Shown piece after piece: positions 24,782 through 63,923 of a stretch of DNA of 64,000 bases; within the stretch, counting starts at the first letter, position 1, and each line of letters begins with the position of its first letter. Both the position numbers and the translations under genes were made by a program. Below the pieces are notes generated by a model that was not told where the DNA came from, did not search any database, and was given only the letters and a program-made list of their open reading frames with translations. The stretch covers positions 73,991 through 137,990 of the forward strand of contig CAZSKK010000002.1 in NCBI GenBank assembly GCA_964607415.1, written 5' to 3'. This DNA comes from an uncultured Candidatus Saccharibacteria bacterium (GTDB lineage: Bacteria > Patescibacteriota > Dojkabacteria > J137).

Positions 24782-27355
24782 TTATTTTTCCATCTCAAAA
24801 CTTACTCTTTTATTTTTTAATACAGCATTAATTCTAAGCAATTCCTTCCTTTTTCTAATAACTTTAGTTTGAAGCAGGAATGTAGCAAGTCCATCTTCAA
24901 GTACCTCAGTTACTTTTCTTCTTATATTTCTCCCTCCATATTCTTTACTATAGCCATGCTCATTTATATATTTAGCTACAGAATCGGATACATTTAACAT
25001 TATGCCTTTCTCTATAAGTCTCAAGATCAGTTCGTTTACAAGATTTTTAGAAATTTGCAAACAATCATCCTTATTCAAACCCCTGAATACATTTATAGAA
25101 TCTATTCTGTTAATAAATTCTGGAGTTAACGAAAATTTTAATTCCTCAAGGATCCTTTCCCTCATCTCATCATATGCAGTCTCTACCTCTGCATCATTCT
25201 TAGATTCTATAGGGATATCAAATCCAAGTTTTGTATCTTTTGAAACTTTCTCCGCACCAATATTCGAAGTCATTATGATAATACAATTTTTAAAGCTTAC
25301 CTTAATCCCTTTAGAATCTGTAAGATTCCCCTCCTCTAAAATTTGCAAAAGTACATTTAGTGTATCAGCATGAGCCTTTTCAATTTCATCAAAAAGAATT
25401 ACAGAATATGGCTTTCTCCTCACAAAAGTCGTTAGCTGGCCGCCTTCCTGATGCCCAACGTATCCAGGAGGAGATCCAATAAGCTTAGAAACGCTGTGCA
25501 TTTCCATAAACTCACTCATATCAACTTGATACAAAAGATTACTGGAGCCAAACAGTTCTTTCGCAAGAGTTTTAGCAAGCTCTGTTTTGCCTACTCCTGT
25601 TGGACCCAGGAACAAAAATGATGCCAGAGGTCTTTTTTCATCGTTTAATCCTAAATGCGATCTTTGTATCGCAAGTGATACGTTTTCTACCACATTATCT
25701 TGCCCCACTATACTCTCTTTAAGCTTTGAGGTTAATGTCTTTAAAGTTTTATCGGATATGTCGCTGGCTGCGATTGGGATTTTTGTCCACTCAACAATAA
25801 TGCTTCGTATCAAATCTGCATCTACTTTCTGAGCAAACTTTGTTTTAGGTTTCTTCTTACCTTCAATTATATCTTCAATCTCATCTACTATAATGTCTTC
25901 TTCCTGTTTAAATTTAGAAGCGATTTCGTAATTAGAGGCATCAAGTGCTTGCTGTTTTTTATTTTGAATTTTAATTAACTTATTTCCTAAAGAGCTTAAT
26001 TCAGGTTCTATTGCTACTTCTCTACCAATTTTTACACTAGCAGCGGCTTCATCAATCAAATCGATTGCTTTATCTGGTAAATACCTATCTTGAATAAATT
26101 TAGACGACAAAACAACAGCATCATCAATTGCTTCCTTACTAATTTTAACCTTATGAAAAGATTCAAATTGAGGAACCAAGTTATATAAAATCTCTTTTGC
26201 ACTTTCCACGTTTATTTCATCAACCATAATGGGCTGAAACCGCCTTTTTAGAGCAGAATCCTCCTCGAAGTACTTGTTGTACTCATCATAGGTTGTAGCG
26301 CCTATTACGGTCAATTCTGAGCTTGTAAGATATGGTTTTAATATGTTTGCAATATCGAGCGAGTCTTTTCCTCCACTGGACCCAGCTCCAACAATCATAT
26401 GTATCTCATCAATAAACAGAATTGTTTGGCCATCTTCGATCACTTCATCTATTACTCCTTTAATCCTTTCCTCCACATCTCCCCTTAATCTTGCACCAGC
26501 TATAATAGATGAAATATCAAGGCTCATTACCCTTTTATTAATAAAAGATGCAGGCAGTTGTTTATTTACAAGCAAATTAACAAAACCTTCAACTATTGCT
26601 GTTTTACCAACACCAGCATCTCCAACTAAAATTGCATTATTCTTTGTTTTCCTTGAAAGTATATGAATTAACCTTTGTATTTCTTTATCGCGACCAGTAA
26701 TATTATGATATTTCCCCTGAGCCGCTATTTCATTCATATCTCTACAGAAATATGGCATCTGCGCTTCCTCTTCTTTGCTTCTAAGAAAATCTTTGCCAAA
26801 TGGAACTCCTAATGATGAAAATGGATCATCTTTAGTTTCAAAATTTGAATCTTTTAATGGATAACTTCCGATTGATATCAATGTTTTTCTTAGTGATTCA
26901 TAATCTATACCTATTTTCTTTACATCTTCTATAAAGTCAATTCCAGGAGTTCTAAACATTGACAGTAAAATATGTTCCGTTCCTACGTAAACATGATTTA
27001 AATCAGAAGCAACAAGGAAACTTTCGTTTAAAACATTTTTGATCTGTATAGAAAATCCTGGTTTAGTTATTACTTCTAAATTTAGTGGATTCAAATCAGA
27101 AGGACTATATTCACTTAGTTTACTTCTTACACGTTTAATTGTTGCTTCTATGTCAATTCCAAGTCTATTAAATACTTCATCAACAACACCATTTTTATCA
27201 AGCATAAGACTTAGGAAAAGATGAATAGGCATGTATTCAAAAGCTTTATTTTCTAAAGCAATCCTGTACCCTTCACCTATTATCCTTCGTGCATTTATGG
27301 TGAATCTATTTACTCCTTTTATATCTTCTTCGTTCAGAGGTATATTGCTATTCAT
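24782..27355 (-). CDS. clpC: Clp/Hsp100 family chaperone ATPase, ClpC-like (two AAA+ modules, short M-domain, LGF-type loop)
   Basis: 857 aa. N-terminal Clp_N repeats, D1 Walker A LVGDAGVGKTAI, D2 Walker A FLGPTGVGKTELAK, sensor ...LFDEIEKAH... A ...KLGFDIP... loop suggests ClpP coupling. ClpB cannot be excluded. Confidence 0.6.
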   Translation of the reverse strand: MNSNIPLNEEDIKGVNRFTINARRIIGEGYRIALENKAFEYMPIHLFLSLMLDKNGVVDEVFNRLGIDIEATIKRVRSKLSEYSPSDLNPLNLEVITKPGFSIQIKNVLNESFLVASDLNHVYVGTEHILLSMFRTPGIDFIEDVKKIGIDYESLRKTLISIGSYPLKDSNFETKDDPFSSLGVPFGKDFLRSKEEEAQMPYFCRDMNEIAAQGKYHNITGRDKEIQRLIHILSRKTKNNAILVGDAGVGKTAIVEGFVNLLVNKQLPASFINKRVMSLDISSIIAGARLRGDVEERIKGVIDEVIEDGQTILFIDEIHMIVGAGSSGGKDSLDIANILKPYLTSSELTVIGATTYDEYNKYFEEDSALKRRFQPIMVDEINVESAKEILYNLVPQFESFHKVKISKEAIDDAVVLSSKFIQDRYLPDKAIDLIDEAAASVKIGREVAIEPELSSLGNKLIKIQNKKQQALDASNYEIASKFKQEEDIIVDEIEDIIEGKKKPKTKFAQKVDADLIRSIIVEWTKIPIAASDISDKTLKTLTSKLKESIVGQDNVVENVSLAIQRSHLGLNDEKRPLASFLFLGPTGVGKTELAKTLAKELFGSSNLLYQVDMSEFMEMHSVSKLIGSPPGYVGHQEGGQLTTFVRRKPYSVILFDEIEKAHADTLNVLLQILEEGNLTDSKGIKVSFKNCIIIMTSNIGAEKVSKDTKLGFDIPIESKNDAEVETAYDEMRERILEELKFSLTPEFINRIDSINVFRGLNKDDCLQISKNLVNELILRLIEKGIMLNVSDSVAKYINEHGYSKEYGGRNIRRKVTEVLEDGLATFLLQTKVIRKRKELLRINAVLKNKRVSFEMEK

Positions 27356-29042: not shown

Positions 29043-29158
29043 AACCGGCGACTACCTATTTTCCCAGGACCCTTCGGACCAAGTATCTTCGGCTCAACTC
29101 TGTTTCACTTCTGAGTTCGAGATGGATCAGGTGGTTCCAGAGCGATACCGTCACCGGA
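29043..29158 (-). rRNA. rrf: 5S ribosomal RNA
   Basis: Minus strand TCCGGTGACGGTATCGCTCTGGAACCACCTGATCCATCTCGAACTCAGAAGTGAAACAGAGTTGAGCCGAAGATACTTGGTCCGAAGGGTCCTGGGAAAATAGGTAGTCGCCGG. Conserved helix I pairing and the CCGAACTCAGAAGTGAAAC core. Confidence 0.85.
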
Positions 29159-29354
29159 CAAATGCGTTTTACGTTTTGCATAAAGCGTTGTATGTATTAG
29201 CGCATTTGTCTGATGACAAGTACAATAAATTTTAAAAGATCACATCACGTTTAACATCATACTTCTAACGTTAAACGCTTATGAACTCTAAAAACTGAAT
29301 AGAAAAAAGTACTCCGAGCATTTGATATAAATACCAAGAAATGATTAAAAAATT

Positions 29355-32395
<3,041 letters not shown>

Positions 32396-32576
32396 ATTTT
32401 TTAATCAATTATATACCCGGTGTACTTTTTCTATTCAGTTGTTAAAGATCAAATACCACTTCCGTGGACGAAATCCGAAAATCGAATTCCGAAATTTATA
32501 TTACTTTATTTTAATACAAGATTTCGAATTTCGAATTTATATTTAGAATTTGCAATTTTGTTTATAAAATTGTTTT

Positions 32577-32649
32577 TGGAGCCTAAGGGATTCGAACCCT
32601 TGACCTCCTCATTGCAAATGAGGCGCTCTACCAACTAAGCTAAGGCCCC
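32577..32649 (-). tRNA. tRNA-Ala (anticodon TGC) in the 16S-23S spacer
   Basis: Minus strand GGGGCCTTAGCTTAGTTGGTAGAGCGCCTCA-TTTGCAA-TGAGGAGGTCAAGGGTTCGAATCCCTTAGGCTCCA, with the G3:U70 identity pair. Confidence 0.85.
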
Positions 32650-32673
32650 AAGCACTCCGTGCTAAGAATAACT

Positions 32674-32750
32674 TGGTAGGCGATCCAAGACTCGAACTTG
32701 GGACCTTTCCCTTATCAGAGGAACGCTCTAACCACCTGAGCTAATCGCCT
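32674..32750 (-). tRNA. tRNA-Ile (anticodon GAT) in the 16S-23S spacer, CCA encoded
   Basis: Minus strand AGGCGATTAGCTCAGGTGGTTAGAGCGTTCCT-CTGATAA-GGGAAAGGTCCCAAGTTCGAGTCTTGGATCGCCTACCA. Confidence 0.85.
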
Positions 32751-32928
32751 GTGATAGCGGTATAGCTCATAGTGCTTAGCTTTTAGCTAGAAACTACTTG
32801 CTATATGCTAGCAGCTAATTAAATCCTTAAAAGTGATAAGAATTCACCGTCTTTTGTTTCAACTTGAATCATGGGTTGGAAATCTGTATCCAAAACGTTA
32901 TTCGTTTTATTTGGAATAAAGCTCCTTA

Positions 32929-34446
<1,518 letters not shown>

Positions 34447-34863
34447 AAACTAAAAAAGTCCGAAGACTAGATTAGCTTGAAAAAATTTGATTATGTTCTT
34501 TTGAAAAAAGAACTAAAACTTTTTTGAGAATATTTAGATCCAAGCGAATTTACAAAAGAATTGTCGGTGATTCTTATCACTGTTAAAGTTTCAATGTGCT
34601 TCCCCTGCTGGTTTTTGACCAAGCAAACAGAACAAAAGATGCTTAAAAATTTAAGCACCTAATAATTCGGAAAATATTTTAGAGGAACCATAATCACTGC
34701 TTCCTGTGGTTAGGATTAGCAATGGACTGGTAAGAATTTTATCAAAGAAAAAAACAATTAGCAAGCAGGAAAAACCAGAATTTTTCAAATAACAATTTAA
34801 AGAATTTTCAAAAGGCTTTGCAGTTACAAATTGAAAATTTTTATAACTGTAAATTGTTAATTT

Positions 34864-39752: not shown

Positions 39753-42179
39753 TTAATCGAATAATTTATCAAATTCTTCTTTATCAATAACCTCTTTTTC
39801 TAGAAGCAATAGAGCAAGTTTATCTAATTTAGCTCTATGTTCAACAATAATCTTCTTTGCTTCGTCATAGGCTTTTGTGACTGCCACTCTTACTTCATCA
39901 TCTATTATCTCAGCTGTTTTTTCTGAATAATCTTTACTATCTGCATAATCATACCCAAGAAAATCTGAATCTGCGTGATCACCGTACTCAACTAAGCCTA
40001 GTTTATCATTCATACCAAATTGCTGGATCATTTTTCTTACTGTTCTAGTTGCTTGTTTTATGTCATTTGAAGCTCCCGTTGAGATATCTCCTAGAACAAC
40101 TTCTTCGGCAGCGCGACCTCCAAGACTAACTGTAACATCAGCCATAAGTTTTGACTTAGAAATGATATTTTCATCTTTTTCTGGTAAGAACATTGTAACT
40201 CCGCCTGTTCCACCTCGGGACACAATTGAAATTTTATCTACAGGCGTAGCTTTTGGCGTAAATTTAGCAACTATAGCATGTCCAGCTTCGTGATACGCAA
40301 CAAGTTTAAGTTCATCGTCAGTTCTTTTTCTGGATCTTTTAGCGGGACCTAAAACAACTTTGGAAACAGCTTCTTCAATATCATGCATTCCTATTGTTTT
40401 TTTGCCAGCTCCTGCGGCAATAATAGCTGCTTCATTCATAATATTTTCAAGATCTGCTCCTGTAAATCCTACTGTTCTTTTTGCAATTCTTTCTAAATCA
40501 ACAGTCGAATCTAATTTTTTATTAGATCCGTGAATAGCTAGTATTTGTTTTCTACCTTCCACATCCGGAACCTCTATTCTTACTTGCCTATCAAACCTAC
40601 CTGGCCTTAGAATAGCTGGGTCAAGCACATCAGGTCTATTAGTTGCTGCAATTACTATTACGTTTGTATTAGTTTCAAAGCCATCCATTTCAACCAGAAT
40701 CTGGTTTAGTGTTTGTTCGGTACTTCCAGATTGAATTCTTGTTCCTCTTTTTCTTGCAACTGCATCAATTTCATCAATAAAAATCAATGAAGGCGCTGCC
40801 TTTTTAGCTTTTGCAAAAAGGTCTCTAACTCTAGATGCTCCTGCCCCAACCAACATCTCTTCAAATTCAGACCCAGAAGTATGAAAAAATGGAACTGCCG
40901 CTTCACCTGCAATTGCTCTTGCTAGTAAAGTTTTTCCTGTGCCTGGAGGACCAAACATTAAAATACCTTTTGGAATTCTAGCTCCTATACTTGTATATTT
41001 CCCTGGATTTCTTAAGAAGTCTACAATTTCATTAAGCTCATCTCTTGCCTCATCAATTCCTGCAACATCCTTAAAGCTTGTATTTGTTTTTGAGCCAAAA
41101 TACATTTTTGCTTTTGACTGTCCAAATTGCATCAATCCCATCCCTGAAGATTGAGCACCTCTAAAAATTATAATTCCTAAAACTACAAACCCAATTAAAG
41201 TTAAGATAGTCAAAATGTCATCAAGACTGATTCCTGCCGGAACATTTACAGATATTATCTGGAAATCTTCTGAGCTCAGGGAAATGCCCTCGTTTTGCAG
41301 GATTTCTGTAAAGCTGTTTATATTTGGAGTCCAATCTATGTAGACTTTTTCAACATAATCATTGTTTATTTCCCCGACTACAATATTATCTAATTGATAA
41401 ATCCTCGAGAACTGTTGTGACTCTAGTCTTGATGAGAACGAATCTTCTTCTACTTTTTTACCAAACACACTCAATTTTCTTACCTCTATTTGTAAATCAC
41501 TTAAGTTGATATTGCTTTCTTCAAGCTTTTCTGTAAAAGCTTGCTCATTGACATTTTCAAGGAGAATATCTTTTGCCGTTCCACCTGTAATACCAAGAAT
41601 AAAATTATCACCCACTATTATCTTTTCAACATTCTGATTACCTGAATTTAAAAAGGTTCTTAGTTCATTTACTAAGCCCTCAGGTTTTAGATAATTGACA
41701 AATTCAGTAAACTCAACCTTTCTTATACTTGTATCAAATCTTAGCACCTTAGTGTCGTTAGTTGATTTAACGTTATCTCCAATACTTCCTTCATAAAAAA
41801 CGTAATATTTGCCATTAGCTACAATCTTTCCATCATCTTGCACTAAAAGTTGAGAAAATTCGTTTGAATTTAGCCCTTTTATCAAATTGTCTAAAGTTGT
41901 TTTATCTAGAAAGAACTGCCTATTAAGAAGACTAAAAATTACAAAAATTCCAAGAAGAACGGTCACAATAATAATAAAAGGGTTTACCTTAATCGATAAA
42001 GTTCTTTTATTATTCTTTGTTTTTTTGCTTGGAGTATTAATTTGAGAAAGTTTTTGTGTAAGCTCTTGAGAGAACTTCTCAATTTCTTCTTGTGTTAGAT
42101 CTTTTTCTGAATTTTTGGTTTGTTTTTCTTTTTTTGCCATATCAATAGTAATTATACCAGCTTGAAGGTGAGAAGGCAT
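39753..42179 (-). CDS. ftsH: ATP-dependent zinc metalloprotease FtsH with an unusually long (about 240 aa) extracytoplasmic domain between TM1 and TM2
   Basis: 808 aa. AAA+ Walker [22 protein letters not shown], the HEAGHAIV zinc motif, and two TM helices separated by a large domain. Confidence 0.9.
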
Positions 42180-47766: not shown

Positions 47767-48222
47767 TTATATTCCGTATTTCTTTCTATCCATATCAATA
47801 TTTCTTTTAATATCACGTTCCTTTAGCTTTGCTCTCTTATCAAATTTTTTTAAACCTTTTGCAATTCCAACTTCGACTTTGATTAGATTATTATCTTTTA
47901 TATAAACCATTAGTGGAACTACTGTTAGCCCAGGCACCTTAATTGCTTCACGAATTTTTGCCATTTCTTTTCTTTTTAGCAGTAATTTTCTATCTCTCTT
48001 TACTTCAGCTAAAGTCTTTTCCCCAGCAAATCTTAACGGATTAACTTGAGAACCAAGAAGAAAAATTTCTTCTTTTTTTTCTTTTATATAGCTACTTTTA
48101 AGATTAATTCGGGATTCTTTTATAGATTTAACTTCCCACCCTTGAAGTACAATTCCAGCCTCAAATTTATCTAATATTTCAAAACTAGCATAAGCTTTTT
48201 TATTATTTGCAACTATTTTCAT
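47767..48222 (-). CDS. smpB: SsrA-binding protein SmpB
   Basis: 151 aa, ...[27 protein letters not shown]...[28 protein letters not shown].... Confidence 0.9.
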   Translation of the reverse strand: [151 protein letters not shown]

Positions 48223-55191: not shown

Positions 55192-55932
55192 TTAATACCT
55201 AATCCAAACACCCCCACTACATTCATATGTATCAAAAGCAGGCACTGCACCGCCTCCAACTTGATTGCATGTATGTGTCTGCCCTTCTGGAGCACATGCG
55301 TATCCTGAAGCATCGGGTTGAGAAAAATTACATGGATCTCCAACCATCAAGCCCTTAGGATCTGTACAAAGTTCAGGGAAGAAAAATTGAAATCTTGGTA
55401 AAGTGTCGAATTGGTAACACTTAACATCTCCATTTAACCCCAAAACTCTAAAAAAGGTAGTCAAAATAGGGATAGCTGTAAATACTAGAATAAAGCCTAA
55501 AACATAATTTATTATTCTTTGCCTTATTGCAGTAATTTTTGTTACATCACCTCGAGTAATTGTATATTGATAACCAAGATAGACTAACATTAAAAATGAG
55601 AATGATCCCACCAAACCCCATACGATATATACTACCCTTACAAACCAAACTTCTGCCTGTTGTAGTTTAGGAGGTCTTAAAAGTGCTTTCTCTGTAGATA
55701 TTATTGCGCCTGATCCATCTTTATACAAACATTGGCAAAGTTGTTTTGAAGAATCATATATTAATTGCGACGAACCGCCGCTCACGTCTCTACATTGATA
55801 ACTACTGCAACTTGAGCTATTAGCTGAAAAATCAAAATCCTGAAACTGTGCAGAAGCATTTCTTATAAGTGAAAGAAATGAGAAAGATGCTACAAATACG
55901 AATAATGTAGCTATAAATGCCCTGCTACCCAT
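55192..55932 (-). CDS. Signal-peptide, Cys-rich membrane protein
   Basis: 246 aa. Signal peptide, Cys-containing mature N-terminal region, two TM helices, Cys-rich C-terminal tail. Confidence 0.4.
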   Translation of the reverse strand: MGSRAFIATLFVFVASFSFLSLIRNASAQFQDFDFSANSSSCSSYQCRDVSGGSSQLIYDSSKQLCQCLYKDGSGAIISTEKALLRPPKLQQAEVWFVRVVYIVWGLVGSFSFLMLVYLGYQYTITRGDVTKITAIRQRIINYVLGFILVFTAIPILTTFFRVLGLNGDVKCYQFDTLPRFQFFFPELCTDPKGLMVGDPCNFSQPDASGYACAPEGQTHTCNQVGGGAVPAFDTYECSGGVWIRY

Positions 55933-55944
55933 AATGTTTTTGAA

Positions 55945-56418
55945 TTAAATTGGTAAATCAATTCCAAAACCATCATCAGGTCTATCAACTTCATCTTGGC
56001 TCAAGCCACCTGTAGCATTGAAGAACGCAATTACAACCACAATCCCTATAATTCCTATAAATAATGCTGCAATTCCAATAAATACACTCTTTATTGCTTT
56101 TTGTGCTTCTTGAATTTTATCAGCATCTCCTTCACTTCTAATATACTTAACAGCAGCCTTAATGATAATGTAAATTGAAACAACAATAATTCCAACAAAT
56201 ACTAGTGATAGCCCGAATTGGACAAGTCCTGCAGTTGTATCCACTGCGTCTTGGGCACCTGTTGTTTCACCAGTACATAAAGAATCGCTTAAAAAAGATA
56301 CATTCTTTAAAAATGGGAATATATCGTCACAGATTACGTTTTGTGCATGTACATTTGGTGTATAAATAGAGAAAAATGAAACTACTAATAAAAGAACACT
56401 TAAAACTTTTCTTTTCAT
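55945..56418 (-). CDS. VirB2/TrbC-like pilin paralogue 1
   Basis: 157 aa. Signal peptide, Cys-containing N-domain, TM, charged loop KAAVKYIRSEGDADKIQEAQKAIKSV, TM. Confidence 0.5.
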   Translation of the reverse strand: MKRKVLSVLLLVVSFFSIYTPNVHAQNVICDDIFPFLKNVSFLSDSLCTGETTGAQDAVDTTAGLVQFGLSLVFVGIIVVSIYIIIKAAVKYIRSEGDADKIQEAQKAIKSVFIGIAALFIGIIGIVVVIAFFNATGGLSQDEVDRPDDGFGIDLPI

Positions 56419-56470
56419 TTTTTTTGTTTGATTTAAAAGATAAGTAACGAATTAAGTATAATTTACAATA

Positions 56471-56995
56471 TTAATCTACAAATGGCAAGTTTGAGCCAGG
56501 GTCTGGGGATTCCAAATCAGGCGAAAATATTCCAGAACCACTAAATAACCCAACCACTACTATCAAACCTATTAATCCTATAAATATAACAGCGATCCCT
56601 ATCATTACTGCTTTTATTCCAGCAAATCCTTCCTGAACCTTTTCTGCATTTGATTCAGCTCTGATTATTGTAAGGCTGGCCTTGATAACTAAAAAGATTC
56701 CATAAATAATTATTAAAACAAAAATTATACTTAGCCCAAAACTTACATATTCTTCTATAGTATTATTTACAGCATCTTCGGAGGACCCTTGATCTGGATT
56801 TAATGGACCAGGACAAGGAAATATATCGCAGAAGGTAAAGCTGTCTGCACTTGAAGCCTGGACGGTGTTTCTGCCTAGAAATGGAGATATTGTAAACACA
56901 GTAAATGCAAATAGCCCTAAGGACATAGCGTATAGCGTATAGCGTATAGCTTGTTGTCTTTTCATTTTCCATTTTTCATTTTTCATTTCTTTCAT
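56471..56995 (-). CDS. VirB2/TrbC-like pilin paralogue 2, with 5' heptanucleotide repeats
   Basis: 174 aa. Same topology, loop ...KASLTIIRAESNAEKVQEGFAGIKAV... The 5' end contains (ATGAAAA)n-like and (CGCTATA)x3 repeats. Confidence 0.5.
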   Translation of the reverse strand: MKEMKNEKWKMKRQQAIRYTLYAMSLGLFAFTVFTISPFLGRNTVQASSADSFTFCDIFPCPGPLNPDQGSSEDAVNNTIEEYVSFGLSIIFVLIIIYGIFLVIKASLTIIRAESNAEKVQEGFAGIKAVMIGIAVIFIGLIGLIVVVGLFSGSGIFSPDLESPDPGSNLPFVD

Positions 56996-57086
56996 ATTAA
57001 TTGCTTATGGGTTAGAGATTTACGTGTTTGCGCTATGCTGAAAGAACTTTTGAACTCATTAACTCGCTAACACAAAAACACACAAA

Positions 57087-57668
57087 CTATTGTATAAAAC
57101 ATACACTATCCGCTTCTTCTTTTGAGTCAAGCAACCCAAATGCCTGATAATAGTATTGTACTTCTTTACCATCAATAGTAGTATTGCATTCTCTAAAAGC
57201 TAAAGGCCAATTCCACACTGCTCCAAGTCCCAAGAAAGCACCAACGACTACAATAATTATTGGGAAAACGAAGGTAAGTGCTGCACCTTCTAGAACCGCT
57301 CTAACTTTTTTTACTGCCTCTTGCAACCCTTCTTGGTTTGACGCATTTTTCATGGCTTTTATTCCTGTCATTACAATTTTTATAATCCAAAATATCACAA
57401 TCGCTAATAAAACTACGTTAAAGCCAAAAGATATATATGACATTGTTGTGCTGTATTTAGTATCAAGTGCAAGCTGGGGGAAAAATGGAACTTTTATTTG
57501 CTCCAATCCTACGTTGTCATCAATATTAAAATCTTCATTAAAGTCTACGGATTGCCCCACAACATTTGTAGACAGAAACGTAAAGCTCAAGATTAGGCAT
57601 ATACCGACTAGCGAATAGCTTATAGCGTATAGCGTATTATTGTTTTGCTTGTTCAATTTGAATCCCAT
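57087..57668 (-). CDS. VirB2/TrbC-like pilin paralogue 3, with 5' heptanucleotide repeats
   Basis: 193 aa. Same topology, loop ...MTGIKAMKNASNQEGLQEAVKKVRAV.... The N-terminus is encoded by ACGCTAT-ACGCTAT-AAGCTAT-TCGCTAG heptads. Confidence 0.5.
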   Translation of the reverse strand: MGFKLNKQNNNTLYAISYSLVGICLILSFTFLSTNVVGQSVDFNEDFNIDDNVGLEQIKVPFFPQLALDTKYSTTMSYISFGFNVVLLAIVIFWIIKIVMTGIKAMKNASNQEGLQEAVKKVRAVLEGAALTFVFPIIIVVVGAFLGLGAVWNWPLAFRECNTTIDGKEVQYYYQAFGLLDSKEEADSVCFIQ

Positions 57669-57744
57669 TTATTTAGATTAATACTCGTTTAAAGTTATAA
57701 GGTTAGAATGTTTTAACGTTGAAACATTACAACATTTTAACCAG

Positions 57745-58383
57745 TTACGTTATAGTTATTACTGTTCCTGGATCTGGATCACCCAGAATTATTAACTGAT
57801 TTAAACTACCCAACCCTAGTGCGCTGAATACCAATTGTACTATTATAATCACCATCCATAAAAGTATAAACCCAGGAATTATCGCCTTCAAAATTTCATT
57901 ATATATAGCTTGTATTTCTTCTGGATTTTCAGTATTCGCTCTTTTTACTGCTCCAAGATAAACTCCTCTGCCTAATGCATATAGCGAACCTGCGCCTAAA
58001 GTTGTAGTAATCAAGACATTAATTAATGCTACAAGCTTTCTATTTGATTTGACATAAAATCTAGTACCAAAAGCGTCAACTTCGTCAAAAACTTCAGGCT
58101 CTGTAATACTGCTTGATGAGCCTCTGCACTTATTATTACAACAAATGGTTGTAGGATTTAATATCTTTGCATTTACGCACTGGAAATCTGGTTCGTAACA
58201 GTCCGTATCCTCGCTATTTTCACACGCCCTTGGACATGAAACAGGTGTACCAAGTGGAGGTAGACAATCAGAAGTACCTTTAACCTTCTGACTTTCTGGT
58301 ACTGTTAACGCTACTAAAAATATGAAAACAGCAGAAAATAATATAATAAAAAATTTTAGTCGATTTAGTTGAGACATAGTCAA
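57745..58383 (-). CDS. VirB2/TrbC-like pilin paralogue 4, Cys-rich N-domain
   Basis: 212 aa. Signal peptide, Cys-rich domain with about 11 Cys, TM, loop ...LGAVKRANTENPEEIQAIYNEILKAI..., TM. Confidence 0.45.
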   Translation of the reverse strand: MTMSQLNRLKFFIILFSAVFIFLVALTVPESQKVKGTSDCLPPLGTPVSCPRACENSEDTDCYEPDFQCVNAKILNPTTICCNNKCRGSSSSITEPEVFDEVDAFGTRFYVKSNRKLVALINVLITTTLGAGSLYALGRGVYLGAVKRANTENPEEIQAIYNEILKAIIPGFILLWMVIIIVQLVFSALGLGSLNQLIILGDPDPGTVITIT

Positions 58384-58412
58384 TAATTAAGAATAGGAAT
58401 CAAACAAGGCTT

Positions 58413-58892
58413 CTAAATTGTAAAAAGTTGATCTGTTCCCAACAATCCAGCAACTGCGTTTACAATTGTTGGTGCTAAAACTGCTATAGCAAATCCTGTT
58501 GCCGCTGCAATTATAATCTTTGTACTGCTTGCAATTTTCTCTGCATCTGTTTTGGCAGTTAATCTAACCCACCCTCCATATAAAACCATTGCTCCAAATG
58601 TTAAGATAAAAATAGGTCTGATTAAAGAAGTGGCTACATTGATTAGTTCTTCTAGACTATCGTATTTTGAAGGATTTGGAATTGTGTAATCAAACTCCTG
58701 AGCAGAAACTCCAAAGAGTTTTCCTGCAAAAGCAAGTACAAAAAGAAATGATGTAATTGTTAAGAACAGCTGTTTTGATTTTTTCATGCATACTTGTGTC
58801 ATCCCGAGGGAAATCGAGGGATGAATTATATAAACGTATGTCATGGTTCGATTTCCCTCACCATGACAACTGACCTTAATATACTTTCGCAT
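58413..58892 (-). CDS. VirB2/TrbC-like pilin paralogue 5; the true start is likely the internal MKKSKQLF...
   Basis: 159 aa. Signal peptide, short N-domain, TM, loop ...VRLTAKTDAEKIASSTKIIIAA..., TM. The annotated N-terminal 36 aa overlap the upstream clp-like gene and a hairpin region. Confidence 0.45.
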   Translation of the reverse strand: MRKYIKVSCHGEGNRTMTYVYIIHPSISLGMTQVCMKKSKQLFLTITSFLFVLAFAGKLFGVSAQEFDYTIPNPSKYDSLEELINVATSLIRPIFILTFGAMVLYGGWVRLTAKTDAEKIASSTKIIIAAATGFAIAVLAPTIVNAVAGLLGTDQLFTI

Positions 58893-61461
58893 CTAACCCA
58901 TCAAATTCAACACCTTTTCCACTAACCAATTCGCGACTAATAATCAAATCTGCTAGTTTGTCTTCAATTGTGTCTTGCACTATTCTTCTTAGTTCTCTTG
59001 CACCGTAAACAATGTTATACCCAAGTTTAGTTAATTCATTAAGTGTTTCCTGATTCCACTTTAGGTCCATTCCTTTGTCGTTCAATCTTTTGTCTATATC
59101 ATTTAACATTATTTCGCAAATTTGTTCAACTTCTGATTTATTTAGTGGCTTAAACATTACGATTTTATCAAATCTATTTAAAAACTCGATTCTATAAATT
59201 TTTCTAAGTTCTGGTAAAGTTTGGGTTTGTATATCTTCGTATTTAATATTTTTTGCTGTCAATTCTGCAATTTCTTTCGATGCGGCATTACTCGTTGCAA
59301 TAATAATTGTATTAGAGAAATCAATAACTCTACCAGCCCCATCAGTAATCCTTCCATCGTCCAATATCTGAAGAAATAAATCAAGAACTTTTGGATTTGC
59401 TTTTTCTAATTCGTCAAGAAGGATTAAACTGAATGGTCTTGATTTAACAGCTTCTGTTAGAAGCCCGCCCAAATAGTTTCCGTTAGAATCTGAATATCCG
59501 ATCAATCTATTCAAATTCTTATCCTCGTGAAATTCTGACATATCAAGCCTAATCATCAACTTCTCGTCACCATAATAAAGCCCCGCCAGTGTCTTTGCTA
59601 CTTCCGTTTTCCCTACTCCTGTAGGGCCATAGAACAAAAAAGAAGCCACAGGCCTTCTGCCACTTGCTAAACCTGACCTTGATCTTCTTAAAGCACTTGC
59701 TACCGATCTTATTGCCTGATCTTGTCCTATTACTCTTTTATGCATTTCTTGTTCGAGGCTTTGAAGTAGTTTCGATTCTTCATCAGAAATACTCCCAACA
59801 TTTACACCTGTTTTTTTCTTTAATAATTCATCTACAGTATTTTCATCAACAAATTTTAAGCCTAAATTTTTTGCTGTTATAAAAGATTCTTCCAAAAGTG
59901 CTATCCCCTTGTCTGGCATTGATCTTTCGTATTCAAATTTTGGGGCAAATTCTACAATTCTTTTTATTGCTTTAAATCTTATTGGTATTTGATATTTTGA
60001 CTCAAGTGGTTTTACTTCATCCAAAAGTATTTGCAATGAAAGATTACTTGCAGGTTCGTTCAAAAATACTGTTGAAAATAAACTTGCCAGATTTTTAAGT
60101 GGCTTAACACCCTGGTTGTAATACTCGTTTGTGGTTGTAGCAATCACTTTAATATTGCTTTGACTAATCATATTTACAATCAAATTAATTACTTCCAATC
60201 GACCTTCAGTTCTAATTGTTAAAACTTGAGAGAAATCCTCTAAAACCAAAACAATATTTCCAGATGAAACTATTTCTTCCAGAATTTTTTGTAAGTTCAT
60301 CTTAAAATTATCGATTGAAGAAGATTTTGTAAAAACTTTATTTAGATCAATAACAACCATTCTGTAATCTTTTAAAGAATCAGGAACATCTTCAACAACC
60401 ATTTTTGTTGCTATGCTTCGCAGAAAATGAGTTTTTCCAACTCCCGGCTCTCCAATTAAAAGGCATGCCGCACCATTTTTTCGCTCTAAAATTCTGAATA
60501 AATCTGTAGTTTCAGATTCTCTGCCAATCATTACTTCAAAGTTATTAGTAGCCGCCTGAGTTGTAAAGTCAGATCCAAATGTATCCAAAGTTGGAGTAGC
60601 TTTAGAAGTGTATGCCCTGTTAATTGCACCCTTTGGTTTTAATTTAGATAAACGTTGCCAGATTGTAAAGTACTGAGATTTTGTTCTTTCATTCTTAATC
60701 CACATCCTTAAGCCTTGAATTTCAAGCTCGCCAATATCTAAATCTTTTAAAGGTTGATTCCAGTAAAATCTTGCCAATGTTGTTAATAAAACCACTTCAT
60801 CGATTTTATTAGCCTCAAGAGTTAAAGCTTCATTAAATACGCGTAAAAATAGATCCTTAAAATTTGTATCAAAGCTTGTATCTTTTGTTTTAAAGTATTC
60901 AATAATTCTTTGTCTAATGATTGATTGCTCTGCACCTAGTCTACTTAGAACAATCTTGGAAATTTCAGGATTTTGTAAAATATTGTCGGATAATGCAAGA
61001 AGAAATTGCGAATCGTATTTAAAATAGATTTTATCTATCAAATTAAAAACCGAATCTGAAAGATAATTATCTATTTCTACATTGTGTAATTTGCCATCCG
61101 CCTTTATTTTCTTTTTAACGTGAGTAAGCTCCAAATCTTCCCAGTTTTCGCCAAATTGATTTTTATTTCGATTTAGAAATAAAGAATAAAGAATGAAAAA
61201 TATTGAAAAATAAGGAATCAAAAACAGAGTTTTGGTCGGGGAAAAAACTTCTTTCACTTCAAAACTTCCGTTTAGGATTATAAGCAAATATGGAATTATT
61301 AATATAAATAGCCCTAAAAACAGAACGAATTTTGCAGCATTTTTTTCAATTGCGTCTTTGGATTCATGTTCACCATGGAACCTAAATAAATCATCAAAAT
61401 CTATAACCAGATTTAGATTTGAAAGGGTTCCTATTTGTGTTTTGCCTTTATAGATTTTCAT
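58876..61461 (-). CDS. Membrane-anchored double-AAA+ ATPase of the Clp/Hsp100 (ClpA/ClpB-like) family
   Basis: 861 aa. N-terminal TM helices, D1 Walker A LLIGEPGVGKTHF, D2 Walker A FYGPTGVGKTEVAKTLAG, ...LILLDELEKANPKVLDLFLQILDDGRITD... and sensor-2 ...GARELRR... motifs. No Clp_N domain. Confidence 0.7.
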   Translation of the reverse strand: MKIYKGKTQIGTLSNLNLVIDFDDLFRFHGEHESKDAIEKNAAKFVLFLGLFILIIPYLLIILNGSFEVKEVFSPTKTLFLIPYFSIFFILYSLFLNRNKNQFGENWEDLELTHVKKKIKADGKLHNVEIDNYLSDSVFNLIDKIYFKYDSQFLLALSDNILQNPEISKIVLSRLGAEQSIIRQRIIEYFKTKDTSFDTNFKDLFLRVFNEALTLEANKIDEVVLLTTLARFYWNQPLKDLDIGELEIQGLRMWIKNERTKSQYFTIWQRLSKLKPKGAINRAYTSKATPTLDTFGSDFTTQAATNNFEVMIGRESETTDLFRILERKNGAACLLIGEPGVGKTHFLRSIATKMVVEDVPDSLKDYRMVVIDLNKVFTKSSSIDNFKMNLQKILEEIVSSGNIVLVLEDFSQVLTIRTEGRLEVINLIVNMISQSNIKVIATTTNEYYNQGVKPLKNLASLFSTVFLNEPASNLSLQILLDEVKPLESKYQIPIRFKAIKRIVEFAPKFEYERSMPDKGIALLEESFITAKNLGLKFVDENTVDELLKKKTGVNVGSISDEESKLLQSLEQEMHKRVIGQDQAIRSVASALRRSRSGLASGRRPVASFLFYGPTGVGKTEVAKTLAGLYYGDEKLMIRLDMSEFHEDKNLNRLIGYSDSNGNYLGGLLTEAVKSRPFSLILLDELEKANPKVLDLFLQILDDGRITDGAGRVIDFSNTIIIATSNAASKEIAELTAKNIKYEDIQTQTLPELRKIYRIEFLNRFDKIVMFKPLNKSEVEQICEIMLNDIDKRLNDKGMDLKWNQETLNELTKLGYNIVYGARELRRIVQDTIEDKLADLIISRELVSGKGVEFDGLDAKVY

Positions 61462-61536: not shown

Positions 61537-61854
61537 TCACAATATCATTCTTGCCACCTGCACCAACGGCAGAAATGGCAACACAATTAAAATTAATAAC
61601 GCCAAGAAATAAGGCATAATCATTATTACTGAAAACAAAGTACCAAATCCAATCCACCAAAATCTAATAAATACACCAATGAATTTACCAGCGCCTGTGT
61701 TATCTCCAAACATTGGTACAAACAAATTTTTAGCCATGGGTAGTGTATTTGTAAGGTTTAGTAAAAACACAAACCTGTACAAAGTGAGCCTAAAAAAGCT
61801 CCTAACTTTAACAAGATAGTACCAGTAGAAGAAGTTTATAAAGTATTCATTCAT
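61537..61854 (-). CDS. Small polytopic membrane protein
   Basis: 105 aa, 3 hydrophobic helices. A hairpin repeat element lies immediately upstream. Confidence 0.35.
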   Translation of the reverse strand: MNEYFINFFYWYYLVKVRSFFRLTLYRFVFLLNLTNTLPMAKNLFVPMFGDNTGAGKFIGVFIRFWWIGFGTLFSVIMIMPYFLALLILIVLPFLPLVQVARMIL

Positions 61855-61873
61855 ATATTAAGCATATTCTACT

Positions 61874-62254
61874 TACTTCTCCTTAAGGAGAAGTCGATTT
61901 TGCCTTTGTGCAAAATCGGATGAGGTTTTTAAATTAACTCTTAAAGATATTGTATATGAAGTAGCGAAAGAGGAAAAGAGCAAATTAGGTACAAGATTTA
62001 GAGGTAAAGAGCAAAAGAGCTAAACAGGTTAGAGGTATGAGGTTAGTGGTTAGAGGAATAGAGCAAGAGAGGCTTGAGGTAAAGGGCGAAAGAGGTAGAG
62101 AGGTGAAAAGGTTTAGAGCAATAGAGAGCAAATGGTTGGATTTCCTCTCCCTCTGGGAGAGGACTTAGGTGAGGGTGTGATCAGAAAGCTTTAGGCTCAC
62201 CTCACCCGTACTCACTGCGTTCGTACGACCTCTCCTCAAAAGGAGAGGAAATTA
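61874..62254. repeat. Second locus of the multi-hairpin element family, split by a ~210-bp GAGG-rich degenerate tandem-repeat tract
   Basis: 61874-61930 reads cttctcc-ttaag-gagaag / tcgattttgc-N-gcaaaatcga / tgagg. 62141-62254 reads cctctcc-ctctgg-gagagg ... ggtgagg...cctcacc ... cctctcc-tcaaaa-ggagagg-aaatta. Compare 35298-35392. The intervening 61931-62140 holds about 15 GAGG/AGAGG motifs. Confidence 0.55.
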
Positions 62255-62405
62255 AAAACGAAATTTTACTTTTGTTCTAGCTATGTGCTATGCGCTATAT
62301 GCTTACCTTAACTCGTTTCTTAAATTTGGAATTTTGGAATTTGGAGTTTATTTTGATCTTTGAAGCTTTGATCTTGTACTTCGCCAAACGTCATACTTCC
62401 TACGT

Positions 62406-63923
62406 CTAACGCTGAACCAGGTTTCCATTTCTATCATAACTCTGCCCTGCCCATTTGCTGAGTTTATCTTCCACAACAAGCCTTGGCTGGGCGTAAGTTT
62501 TTCGGGACATATCTTTTATTTGATTTTTAAGGCCAAAATTTTCAAACTTTGCTGGCAGCGAAATTGCAGTAAACGGTTTGGTTTGTGTTCCGTCAATAGT
62601 CATTTTTAGAACAATTCTAAATCGCTCAAGGTTTACCAAATCTTCTCCTGTTAAATAAGGTGAATACTCTTTTTCCAATCGATTTGCGTCTTTTGGTCCA
62701 ACAACAAAGTTAATCATTGTTCCAACATTTCCAAAGATTGCATCTTGAATATTTCTATCAAGTTGATCAATATATTGATGTGCTACAACTAAATTTAGAC
62801 CATATTTTCTGGCTTCAGATAGGATTTTTACAAAAGTTTCTGTAGAAAAGTTTTGAAATTCATCAACGTATAAATAAAAATCTCGTCTTTCATTTTCAGG
62901 CATTTTGGCCCGCTGCATTGCATTTGTGTAAAGCCTTGTAATTAACATTCCACCTAAAAGCATGCTATTCTCCTCTCCAATTTTTCCTTGAGATAGATTA
63001 ATCAAAATGATTTTTCCTGAGTTCATTGCTTCCTGCAAATCAACAGTAGATTTAACTTGGCCAATCATATTTCTAATCATTGAAGAGCTTAAAAATCTTC
63101 CCACTTTATTTTGAATTGGCGATAGTGTATCCGAAAGCAATTTTTGATTTTTCGCCATTTCGGCAAATTCAACATTCCAGAATTTTAGTAAAAACGGATC
63201 TTTTACTTGTTTTAATAAAAATCTTCTATAATTCTCGTCAGTTAAAATCCTTTGCACAGCAACTAAAGAAACATTTTGGCAATTTAGCAAAGTTAAAATT
63301 GTTGTAGTTAAAATATATTGAAGCCTTGGTCCCCACGATTCGCCAAAAAGCCTTTTGAAAGCTGTAACAATTCCATCTGCCAGAAGTTCCTTTGACTCAC
63401 CTTCTTTTAAGTCCAGCATGTTTAGTGCTACAGGAAAGTCGGTATCCGATGGATCAATATAAATTACGTCTTTCATTCTGTGTTCTGGAATATAGTTTAG
63501 AAGTTCTTCAACCGCATCCCCATGTGGATCAATAAATGCAAGTCCTTCACCGCTCAAAATATCACCGTAAATCATATTTTTTAACATTACAGATTTTCCA
63601 GCTCCTGTTTTTCCAACAACATACATATGCCTTCGTCTATCTTCTTTTTTAATTCCAAAAGGTGTATGTATGCTTCTAAAATCGGTTACGGCAAAAAGTC
63701 TTGCGTTTTCAGTTGGTAGGTCCAAAGGCATCTCAAGCTTACGGGAGTTTGCCCAATTGATTTTTGGCGTTTGTACAGATTCGTTTGGAAGGTGATAAAT
63801 TGATGCAACTTCTTCAATATTTAAAATTCCTGTTTCAAATTCGTTTAAAAATCTTTCGGAAAATTTGTGCTTTAAATCTAGTTTTTGATTTTGCCTTTGA
63901 CCTTTAATGCTATCTTTAATCAT
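62406..63923 (-). CDS. Second, soluble FtsK/HerA-superfamily type-IV-secretion-type ATPase, paralogous to the C-terminal half of the 44651..47092 protein
   Basis: 505 aa. Walker A VVGKTGAGKSV followed by IDPHGDAV, ...YIDPSD...ALNML..., Walker B FYLYVDEFQNF, and ...EARKYGLNLVVAHQYIDQL...AIFGNVGTMINFVVGP.... Confidence 0.6.
   Translation of the reverse strand: MIKDSIKGQRQNQKLDLKHKFSERFLNEFETGILNIEEVASIYHLPNESVQTPKINWANSRKLEMPLDLPTENARLFAVTDFRSIHTPFGIKKEDRRRHMYVVGKTGAGKSVMLKNMIYGDILSGEGLAFIDPHGDAVEELLNYIPEHRMKDVIYIDPSDTDFPVALNMLDLKEGESKELLADGIVTAFKRLFGESWGPRLQYILTTTILTLLNCQNVSLVAVQRILTDENYRRFLLKQVKDPFLLKFWNVEFAEMAKNQKLLSDTLSPIQNKVGRFLSSSMIRNMIGQVKSTVDLQEAMNSGKIILINLSQGKIGEENSMLLGGMLITRLYTNAMQRAKMPENERRDFYLYVDEFQNFSTETFVKILSEARKYGLNLVVAHQYIDQLDRNIQDAIFGNVGTMINFVVGPKDANRLEKEYSPYLTGEDLVNLERFRIVLKMTIDGTQTKPFTAISLPAKFENFGLKNQIKDMSRKTYAQPRLVVEDKLSKWAGQSYDRNGNLVQR

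What the first reader, a model, noticed from the sequence alone, without database searches (positions are those of the whole stretch)
58876..61461. Membrane-tethered Clp/Hsp100-type double-AAA+ ATPase inside the secretion-like cluster
This is a second Hsp100 protein, distinct from the housekeeping ClpC-like gene at 24782..27355. It has both AAA+ rings (GEPGVGKT and GPTGVGKTE Walker A boxes, ClpB-D2-type sensor motifs) but no Clp_N domain, and instead carries N-terminal transmembrane helices. It sits directly upstream of the five pilin-like genes. Membrane-anchored ClpB/ClpA-like unfoldases are unusual. By analogy with ClpV in type VI secretion it could power assembly, disassembly or substrate threading for the neighbouring apparatus, perhaps replacing a missing VirB11-type ATPase.
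Basis: partly seen in the sequence, partly recalled or inferred. Interest (0 to 1): 0.75.

Follow-up and report, generated by a model that had tools for sequence, protein, structure and literature searches.

The report
Membrane-anchored Clp ATPase with small partner
This gene encodes a heat-shock-type protein-unfolding motor that is bolted to the cell membrane and is always paired with a tiny membrane protein. The pair is undescribed as far as I could find. It is spread across the ultra-small "CPR" bacteria and sits next to secretion-pilus genes only in this organism's lineage.

Summary
The ORF at 58876..61461 (-) is real. It encodes an 861-aa Hsp100/Clp protein with two N-terminal transmembrane helices and two AAA+ modules, just upstream of six VirB2-like pilin genes.

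- Only ring D2 looks catalytic. D1 keeps its P-loop but has lost the arginine fingers, the canonical Walker B and the pore-loop tyrosine.

The protein has no M-domain and no ClpP-docking loop. It scores far below the NCBIfam cut-offs for ClpB, ClpA and ClpV.

The strongest new result is a conserved partner. A 105-130-aa membrane protein (here 61537..61854) lies directly upstream in 60 of 60 loci that have upstream sequence.

This two-gene module is widespread in Patescibacteria:
- Dojkabacteria-type loci: pilin arrays follow in 13 of 13.
- Other CPR loci: no pilin-like ORFs detected. The module sits beside a WecA-like glycosyltransferase (22 loci) or YidC (at least 9 loci).

The best reading is a ClpP-independent, membrane-facing unfoldase or extractase for membrane proteins, recruited to a T4SS pilin operon in one lineage. 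It is not a dedicated ClpV or VirB11 analogue. I class it as a new variant of a known kind. The function is inferred, not shown.

The parts
61537..61854 (-). Small membrane protein (105 aa), the conserved operon partner of the ATPase. It has an N-terminal amphipathic helix with a (F/Y)W(Y/W)Y motif, a KN(L/I)F.PM(F/Y)G motif and C-terminal hydrophobic helices.
   Evidence: An HMM finds a homologue directly upstream on the same strand in 60 of 60 loci with upstream sequence. Gaps are mostly -8 to +10 nt. At least 1212 clusters exist, all 'hypothetical' with no Pfam hit. There is no Pfam or NCBIfam hit. The AF2 model has pLDDT 83 and is all-helical. It has no PDB fold match.
58876..61461 (-). 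Membrane-anchored Hsp100/Clp-type double-AAA+ ATPase (861 aa plus stop).
61369..61461 (-). Residues 1-31: small cytoplasmic N-terminal element, a beta-hairpin at residues 7-21. Some Parcubacteria-type homologues have a CxxCxGxG zinc ribbon at their N-terminus, ahead of the TM hairpin; I did not test whether it corresponds to this element.
   Evidence: AF2 model; homologue sequences.
61270..61338 (-). TM helix 1 (hydrophobic core, residues ~42-64).
   Evidence: Kyte-Doolittle mean 3.07. AF2 helix 32-63. An N-terminal hydrophobic segment is present in all full-length family members P0001-P0046 and in none of the classical Clp hits P0047-P0120.
61171..61230 (-). TM helix 2 (residues ~78-97). Together with TM1 it forms a hairpin that leaves both ends in the cytoplasm.
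   Evidence: Kyte-Doolittle mean 2.1. AF2 helix 82-96. Lys/Arg-rich flanks are read directly from the sequence.
60643..61128 (-). Divergent Clp_N-type helical domain (residues ~112-273).
60562..60645 (-). Family-specific linker motif KLKPxGxxNRAYTSxATPxLDxxxxDxT (residues 273-300), which replaces the usual N-domain-to-D1 linker.
   Evidence: The core N-R-[AS]-[YWFM]-[TS] motif is found in 42 of 46 family members and in only 1 of 74 other hits; that one (P0053) lacks a detected TM segment and looks like an N-terminally short relative.
59782..60549 (-). D1 AAA+ module (residues ~305-560) plus lid. The P-loop is intact but the catalytic and pore motifs are degenerate. There is no M-domain insertion.
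   Evidence: The Walker A lysine is kept in 34 of 34 Dojkabacteria-type members. Walker B DE is replaced by ED, EE, DD, DN or EN. Arg fingers RR are replaced by (S/A)L in all members. KYRGEFE is lost. The M-domain region is all gaps.
58879..59781 (-). D2 AAA+ module plus ClpB_D2-small (residues 561-861), the apparent motor ring. It lacks a ClpP-docking (I/L)G(F/L) loop.
   Evidence: Walker A K, Walker B DE, sensor-1 N, the Arg finger and sensor-2 R are invariant in 43 of 43 members. The pore loop G-x-(F/Y)-x-G-G keeps an aromatic residue in 29 of 34 Dojkabacteria-type members. The ClpP-loop region is gapped, as in ClpB.
55192..58892 (-). Array of six VirB2-like pilin genes immediately downstream: 58413-58892, 57745-58383, 57087-57668, 56471-56995, 55945-56418 and 55192-55932. 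These are lineage-specific neighbours and candidate clients.
   Evidence: PF18895 hits on the first and last gene. Each has a signal-peptide-like start plus two TM helices. Homologous arrays follow the ATPase in 13 of 13 Dojkabacteria-type loci.

Best explanation
The gene is one half of a conserved two-gene module of Patescibacteria (CPR). The module is a small membrane protein followed, usually with translational coupling, by a membrane-anchored Hsp100/Clp ATPase.

Proposed anatomy. The ATPase would form the usual Hsp100 hexamer. D1 only binds nucleotide and acts as an assembly or scaffold ring. D2 is the ATP-hydrolysing, substrate-gripping motor. The TM hairpin precedes Clp_N and D1 by only about 15-30 residues, so the substrate entry face of the ring is held against the cytoplasmic side of the membrane, as in FtsH or Msp1.

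Proposed activity. With no ClpP-docking loop and no DnaK-coupling M-domain, it most likely works as a stand-alone unfoldase or extractase. It would grip cytoplasmically exposed parts of membrane proteins and pull or remodel them. The small partner would serve as a membrane adaptor or regulator.

Lineage-specific use. In the Dojkabacteria lineage the module has been placed at the head of the operon for the VirB2-like pilin array of the MPF_FATA-like T4SS. There its likely clients are the pilins or other membrane parts of that apparatus, for extraction, recycling or quality control.

Shown: the architecture, the motif states, the partner linkage and the gene contexts. Inferred: hexamer formation, orientation, direction of pulling, clients and the partner's role.
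For: - Architecture and TM hairpin.
- Clp_N present.
- D1 degenerate and D2 fully intact across 43 family members.
- No M-domain and no ClpP loop, whereas the window's own ClpC has LGF.
- Below every Clp equivalog cut-off.
- Partner gene upstream in 60 of 60 loci. Starting from the partner also leads to the ATPase in 2 of 2 look-ups.
- Recurrent neighbours are all membrane or envelope genes. These are pilin arrays (13 of 13 Dojkabacteria-type loci), a WecA-like GT4 (22 loci) and YidC directly upstream (at least 9 loci).
- The ATPase is tightly spaced with, or overlaps, the downstream pilin-cluster genes.
Against: - There is no experimental data for any family member.
- The Parcubacteria-type homologues have a shortened D2 pore loop without the aromatic residue. 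That is awkward for a threading motor and could mean a non-threading mechanism in those lineages.
- groES-groEL lie just upstream in most Dojkabacteria-type loci, so a general chaperone role unrelated to the pilins is possible.
- The pilin HMMs used on the other loci were built from Dojkabacteria sequences and could miss very divergent pilins.
- Genome-wide co-occurrence with a T4SS was not tested.
- Hexamer formation and partner binding are assumed.
Confidence: 0.45

Rival explanations
1. It is a dedicated T4SS energiser. On this reading it is a ClpV-like or VirB11-substituting ATPase that powers assembly, disassembly or substrate threading of the neighbouring T4SS-like apparatus.
For: Linkage to the pilin array is invariant in Dojkabacteria-type loci, 13 of 13, often with overlapping or closely spaced genes. 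A VirD4-like ATPase, a SpoIID-type hydrolase and a large membrane protein lie in the same gene run.
Against: The same module, with the same partner, occurs in about 50 other CPR loci without detectable pilin or T4SS genes nearby. The well-studied Saccharibacteria T4SS and pilin array is described without any Clp or AAA component (PMC10633639; bioRxiv 10.1101/2025.01.22.634366). The ClpV1 model scores 384 against a cut-off of 885. MPF_FATA systems natively lack VirB11 (my own knowledge). The N-terminal anchor points the entry pore at the membrane, so threading would go into the cytoplasm, not into a channel (inference).
Confidence: 0.15
2. It is a general membrane-localised chaperone or disaggregase for proteostasis. 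Its position next to pilins, GT4 or YidC would then be mere synteny with no functional link.
For: groES-groEL lie directly upstream in most Dojkabacteria-type loci, and clpP does in L031. A classical Clp gene lies divergently upstream in many Parcubacteria-type loci. Some homologues carry a DnaJ-like CxxCxGxG zinc ribbon.
Against: It lacks the M-domain that couples ClpB/Hsp104 disaggregases to DnaK. The D1 ring and its pore loop are degenerate. In three separate lineages the adjacent genes are membrane or envelope genes, often with overlapping or near-zero spacing. The strictly conserved partner is an integral membrane protein.
Confidence: 0.22
3. It is the unfoldase of a membrane-bound ClpP protease, in the manner of ClpA or ClpC.
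For: It has a ClpA-like domain order without an M-domain. The NCBIfam ClpA model aligns in one stretch over residues 172-851. clpP lies immediately upstream in one locus, L031.
Against: The D2 segment that carries the (I/L)G(F/L) ClpP-docking tripeptide is absent in all family members. It is present in the window's own ClpC (LGF) and in reference ClpCs. The ClpA score of 398 is far below the cut-off of 993. clpP adjacency is seen in only 1 of about 67 loci.
Confidence: 0.03
4. It is a non-threading nucleotide-driven switch or scaffold. The ring, together with the small partner, would organise or gate a membrane complex without translocating polypeptide.
For: D1 is catalytically dead throughout the family. 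The Parcubacteria-type D2 pore loop is shortened and lacks the aromatic residue.
Against: All D2 catalytic and sensor residues are invariant in 43 of 43 members. Dojkabacteria-type members keep an aromatic pore-loop residue in 29 of 34 cases. Both patterns are typical of an active motor.
Confidence: 0.12

Closest known systems
ClpB / Hsp104 disaggregases
   Same: These are the best sequence matches: T. thermophilus ClpB 1qvr at 390 bits and TIGR03346 at 470 bits, mainly over D2. Shared features are Clp_N, two AAA+ modules, the ClpB_D2-small domain and the absence of a ClpP loop.
   Different: This protein has no coiled-coil M-domain. D1 lacks the Arg fingers, the canonical Walker B and the pore-loop Tyr. 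It has an N-terminal TM hairpin and an obligatory small membrane partner. Its score is far below the equivalog cut-off of 1232.
ClpA / ClpC (ClpP-activating unfoldases)
   Same: Like ClpA, it has Clp_N-D1-D2 with no full M-domain. The ClpA model aligns end to end over residues 172-851.
   Different: It has no (I/L)G(F/L) ClpP-docking loop and none of the short M-domain or UVR seen in ClpC. It is membrane-anchored and D1 is inactive.
ClpV / TssH of type VI secretion
   Different: TIGR03345 scores 384 against a cut-off of 885. The neighbouring genes scanned gave no T6SS family hit. ClpV is soluble. This family also occurs widely without any secretion genes nearby.
Plasmodium HSP101 of the PTEX translocon
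   Different: HSP101 has no TM segment. From my own knowledge, it docks onto the EXP2 pore by its D2 face to push cargo outward. Here the anchor is at the N-terminal, entry side, which implies the opposite polarity.
FtsH, Msp1/ATAD1 and Bcs1 (N-terminally membrane-anchored AAA proteins)
   Same: This is a functional and geometric analogy. An N-terminal TM anchor places the pore entry of an AAA ring against the membrane, and these proteins extract or handle membrane proteins (Msp1: PMC7018516).
   Different: They belong to a different AAA clade, have a single AAA ring, and FtsH carries an M41 protease. The window has its own FtsH at 39753..42179. They are not homologous beyond the AAA+ fold.
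CPR MPF_FATA-like T4SS with VirB2-like pilin arrays
   Same: The downstream genes in this window match what has been described for Patescibacteria: VirB2-like arrays, VirB4/VirD4-type ATPases and cell-wall hydrolases (bioRxiv 10.1101/2025.01.22.634366; PMC10633639).
   Different: Neither paper mentions a Clp or AAA+ component. The link between the ATPase and the pilin array seen here is confined to Dojkabacteria-type genomes.

Membership tests
Hsp100/Clp class I (two-ring) AAA+ superfamily | Two tandem AAA+ modules with a C-terminal ClpB_D2-small domain | tested here: met
   Pfam gives AAA_2 at 2.5e-49, ClpB_D2-small at 1.1e-21 and a D1 P-loop module. PDB hits are to ClpB, ClpC and ClpA.
Hsp100/Clp class I (two-ring) AAA+ superfamily | N-terminal Clp_N double-repeat domain | tested here: met
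Hsp100/Clp class I (two-ring) AAA+ superfamily | Catalytically competent D1 ring (Walker B DE, Arg fingers, pore-loop Tyr) | tested here: not met
   Walker B is ED in the query. The Arg fingers are replaced in 43 of 43 members and KYRGEFE is lost.
ClpB / Hsp104 | Coiled-coil M-domain inserted in the D1 small domain | tested here: not met
   The alignment shows a complete gap where ClpB references have about 120 residues.
ClpB / Hsp104 | Score above the NCBIfam equivalog cut-off (TIGR03346, 1232 bits) | tested here: not met
   469.6 bits.
ClpA / ClpC | ClpP-docking (I/L)G(F/L) loop in D2 | tested here: not met
   The loop segment is absent in all family members. It is present in the window's ClpC (LGF) and in reference ClpCs.
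ClpA / ClpC | Score above the NCBIfam ClpA cut-off (TIGR02639, 993 bits) | tested here: not met
   397.5 bits.
ClpV / TssH (T6SS) | Score above the TIGR03345 cut-off (885 bits) | tested here: not met
   383.6 bits.
ClpV / TssH (T6SS) | Encoded with T6SS sheath and baseplate genes (TssB/C etc.) | tested here: not met
   Pfam scans of the 20 ORFs from 39753 to 63923, and of ten further ORFs elsewhere in the window, show no T6SS family. ORFs between about 4500 and 17700 were not scanned.
ClpV / TssH (T6SS) | N-domain groove that binds the sheath protein (VipB/TssC) helix | not testable with these tools
VirB11-type T4SS ATPase | T2SSE/VirB11 RecA-like hexameric ATPase fold (PF00437) | tested here: not met
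   PF00437 is not among the 25 best of 31 Pfam hits, which are AAA+/Clp-type and generic P-loop families. Any substitution would be functional analogy only.
Proposed new family: CPR membrane-anchored Clp (TM-Clp) plus small partner | N-terminal TM segment(s), the NRAYTS linker motif, a degenerate D1, an intact D2 and the partner gene directly upstream | tested here: met
   The query has all five features. All full-length members P0001-P0046 have TM segments, none of the classical hits do, and 42 of 46 members carry the core linker motif against 1 of 74 other hits.

The most novel reading that the evidence does not exclude
The small membrane protein and the TM-anchored Hsp100 together form a previously unrecognised bacterial membrane-protein dislocase. 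It would be an Hsp100-based functional counterpart of Msp1 or Cdc48, and a core feature of CPR envelope biology. In Dojkabacteria it would be the motor that extracts or retracts VirB2-like pilins, giving a monoderm-type T4SS a dynamic pilus powered by a Clp ATPase.
Probability: 0.2. Interest if true: 0.85.

Novelty: new variant of a known kind. Interest (0 to 1): 0.6.

Why it matters
Hsp100/Clp machines are textbook soluble unfoldases. A membrane-anchored version with a dead D1 ring and an obligatory small membrane partner would add a new architectural class to the family. The partner alone has at least 1212 sequence clusters.

It would also point to a membrane-protein handling system specific to the CPR. 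That radiation makes up a large share of bacterial diversity, and its envelope and host-contact machinery are poorly understood.

In the Dojkabacteria lineage it offers a concrete, testable candidate for how VirB2-like pilin arrays are processed. Such arrays are essential in the one CPR organism where this was tested (PMC10633639). The result also warns against annotating these proteins as 'ClpC' or 'ClpB', as sources currently do.

Tried and rejected
- The search for related loci with an 18-sequence alignment failed because no stretch was conserved enough. A 5-sequence alignment and a 7-sequence alignment worked, but each used a single peptide pattern, so sampling of the family is biased.
- A single-sequence search with the small partner found only one hit. 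The profile search was needed.
- Pfam and NCBIfam give nothing for the partner. Foldseek against the PDB gives no match.
- The whalefall-1 RNA hit upstream of the module was checked in four related loci and not found, so it is not part of the module.
- Literature searches found no description of this protein: T4SS + Patescibacteria + ClpB, membrane-anchored ClpB + CPR and Hsp100 + transmembrane terms. The ClpB mention in the TM7x transcriptome paper refers to the host's ClpB.
- The ClpP-partner idea was rejected for lack of the docking loop.
- I considered that the GT4 neighbour might be MraY. NCBIfam favours WecA-like, though below the cut-off.
- I tried to classify the window's 813-aa and 505-aa P-loop proteins as VirB4 or VirD4. 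Both give only weak T4CP-like matches to TrwB and DotL, so I left them as 'VirB4/VirD4-superfamily'.
- The organism names on several binned genomes ('uncultured Gammaproteobacteria', 'Saccharibacteria') looked unreliable to me, since their gene order matches the Dojkabacteria- and Parcubacteria-type CPR loci. I did not use them for taxonomy.
Full report
**1. The observation**

The ORF at 58876..61461 on the minus strand is real and encodes 861 aa. An identical protein exists on a 445-kb NCBI contig, and about 36 full-length orthologues (40-57% identity) follow. Where sources name them, the name is Candidatus Dojkabacteria. The window is chromosomal, with low GC and an rRNA operon at 29043-34448.

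Pfam finds AAA_2 at residues 603-767, ClpB_D2-small at 773-852 and an upstream P-loop module.

Two hydrophobic segments lie at residues ~42-64 and ~78-97, with Kyte-Doolittle means of 3.07 and 2.1. An AlphaFold2 model of residues 1-335, built on a 44-sequence alignment, has mean pLDDT 86 and shows them as helices 32-63 and 82-96. The flanks are Lys/Arg-rich and the connecting loop is short. This fits a hairpin with both ends in the cytoplasm (read from the sequence; inference).

Six ORFs follow immediately downstream (55192..58892). Each has a signal-peptide-like start plus two TM helices, and two hit PF18895 T4SS_pilin.

**2. Corrections to the observation**

*Clp_N is present.* 'No Clp_N domain' is true for Pfam only.
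- Profile-profile comparison links the N-region to Parcubacteria-type homologues at 99.6%.
- Those homologues link to classical Clp_N at 99.2%.
- The query group links directly to classical Clp_N at 96.1%, E 3e-9.

*The two rings are not equivalent.* I aligned 43 family members with classical Clp proteins, including the window's own ClpC at 24782..27355.
- D1 keeps the Walker A lysine.
- D1 has lost both arginine fingers in 43 of 43 members.
- D1 has ED, EE, DD, DN or EN in place of the Walker B DE.
- D1 lacks the KYRGEFE pore loop.
- D2 has every catalytic and sensor residue invariant in 43 of 43 members.
- The D2 pore loop is remodelled to G-x-(F/Y)-x-G-G, with an aromatic residue in 29 of 34 Dojkabacteria-type members. 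In Parcubacteria-type members the loop is shortened and has no aromatic residue.

*Other missing features.* There is no M-domain. The D2 segment that carries the ClpP-docking (I/L)G(F/L) tripeptide is absent, although the window's ClpC has LGF there. All NCBIfam Clp equivalogs score far below their cut-offs:

| Model | Score (bits) | Cut-off (bits) |
|---|---|---|
| ClpB | 470 | 1232 |
| ClpA | 398 | 993 |
| ClpV1 | 384 | 885 |

**3. The family and its invariant partner**

Among the top 120 hits, all full-length members of P0001-P0046 carry N-terminal hydrophobic segments, and 42 of the 46 carry the core of a family-specific linker motif (KPxGxxNRAYTSxATPxLD). P0047-P0120 have no such TM segment, and only one of them (P0053) has the motif. 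The family therefore extends beyond Dojkabacteria. It includes 870-935-aa proteins of other CPR groups: Parcubacteria group, Pacebacteria, Kuenen-, Uhr- and Falkowbacteria, and 'Patescibacteria group'.

The key finding is a small ORF. In this window it is at 61537..61854 (105 aa). A homologue lies directly upstream on the same strand in every locus with enough upstream sequence, 60 of 60, with some redundancy among contigs. Gaps are mostly between -8 and +10 nt.

A profile of this protein finds at least 1212 clusters. All are about 120 aa, all are 'hypothetical', none has a Pfam domain, and where named they are from Patescibacteria. Two look-ups that started from partner proteins again led to the ATPase immediately downstream.

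The AF2 model of the partner (pLDDT 83) is a simple helical membrane protein with no PDB match.

**4. Gene context**

I examined 80 loci from three sources using HMMs built from the window and related loci.

| Locus type | Neighbours of the module | Count |
|---|---|---|
| Dojkabacteria-type | 3-8 VirB2-like pilin ORFs downstream, often then a SpoIID-domain protein | 13 of 13 loci with at least 2 kb downstream |
| Parcubacteria-type (~50 loci) | no pilin-like ORF detected | 0 |
| Parcubacteria-type, subset | WecA-like family-4 glycosyltransferase just downstream | 22 |
| Parcubacteria-type, another subclade | yidC immediately upstream and rplU downstream | at least 9 |

In the Dojkabacteria-type loci the stop and start codons often overlap or lie within 30 nt. 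groES-groEL usually lie upstream there. In this window a VirD4-like gene does instead.

The pilin and T4SS linkage is therefore real but lineage-specific. The only universal neighbour is the small membrane protein.

**5. Literature**

The CPR T4SS and its VirB2-like arrays are already described. The system is MPF_FATA-like (bioRxiv 10.1101/2025.01.22.634366), and it is essential in Southlakia epibionticum (PMC10633639). Neither paper contains 'Clp' or 'AAA'. Three further searches found no description of a membrane-anchored bacterial Hsp100 or of this module.

**6. Mechanism (inference)**

In Hsp100 hexamers, substrates enter at the N-domain/D1 face and leave at D2. This is established knowledge; ClpP, for example, docks on D2 of ClpA. 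Here a TM hairpin precedes Clp_N by only about 15-30 residues, so the entry face must sit against the cytoplasmic side of the membrane, as in FtsH or Msp1.

- D1 would bind nucleotide and hold the ring together.
- D2 would pull.
- With no ClpP loop and no M-domain, the product would be released rather than degraded or handed to DnaK.

I therefore favour a stand-alone membrane-facing unfoldase or extractase, working with the small partner. Its clients would be encoded nearby in each lineage: pilins in Dojkabacteria, and possibly YidC substrates or the GT4 enzyme elsewhere. My confidence in this is about 0.45.

The rivals are:
- a dedicated T4SS energiser (0.15), weakened by the non-T4SS contexts and by the polarity argument;
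- a generic membrane-localised chaperone (0.22);
- a non-threading switch (0.12), suggested by the pore-loop loss in Parcubacteria-type members;
- a ClpP partner (0.03), contradicted by the missing docking loop.

**7. Verdict**

The protein is a member of the Hsp100/Clp superfamily but of none of its named families. It is best described as a new architectural variant: TM hairpin, divergent Clp_N, pseudo-active D1 and active D2, with an obligatory small membrane partner. It is widespread in CPR and, as far as I could find, undescribed. Its function remains inferred.

Noticed in passing
window 61873-61927 (+): There is an Rfam whalefall-1 RNA (RF01762) match at 39.6 bits against a gathering score of 37. 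It consists of two hairpins followed by GGAUGAGG. It is antisense to the operon and sits immediately upstream of the small partner ORF. No match was found in four related loci.
   Followed up: partly
window 61855-62405: The 550-nt intergenic region between the VirD4-like gene and the partner gene is unusual. It holds a degenerate tandem repeat of about 31 nt (61969-62037) and CCTCTCC...GGAGAGG hairpins.
   Followed up: partly
P0038, P0040, P0045 (loci such as L004): Some Parcubacteria-type homologues begin with a DnaJ-like CxxCxGxG...CxxC zinc-ribbon motif ahead of the TM hairpin. The Dojkabacteria-type protein has only a Cys-free beta-hairpin at its N-terminus.
   Followed up: no
L011, L042-L049, L052, L055, L064: In one CPR subclade the membrane insertase gene yidC lies immediately upstream of the partner gene, sometimes overlapping it. 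The gene order is yidC, partner, TM-Clp, rplU.
   Followed up: partly
window 47767-48222 (-): smpB, the tmRNA partner gene, sits in the middle of the T4SS-like gene run, between the 828-aa membrane protein and the 813-aa P-loop ATPase.
   Followed up: no
window 39753-42179 (-): FtsH is 808 aa and its AAA domain starts only at residue 406. The N-terminal, presumably extracytoplasmic, part therefore looks unusually long to me.
   Followed up: no
window 44651-47092 (-) and 62406-63923 (-): Both P-loop ATPases of the cluster give only weak matches, and these are to coupling proteins (TrwB, DotL, TraD). No clear VirB4 signature was obtained, so which one is the VirB4 equivalent is unresolved.
   Followed up: partly
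L001, L002, L029, L030, L031 (upstream of the module): In most Dojkabacteria-type loci groES-groEL lie directly upstream of the partner/TM-Clp module, preceded by an FtsA/PilM-like gene. In L031 clpP lies between groEL and the module.
   Followed up: no
L030 12544-18701; L002 12577-13719: In some Dojkabacteria-type loci large ORFs with no Pfam hit (650, 198 and 1199 aa, or 380 aa) are inserted between the ATPase and the pilin array. The first of them overlaps the ATPase stop codon.
   Followed up: no
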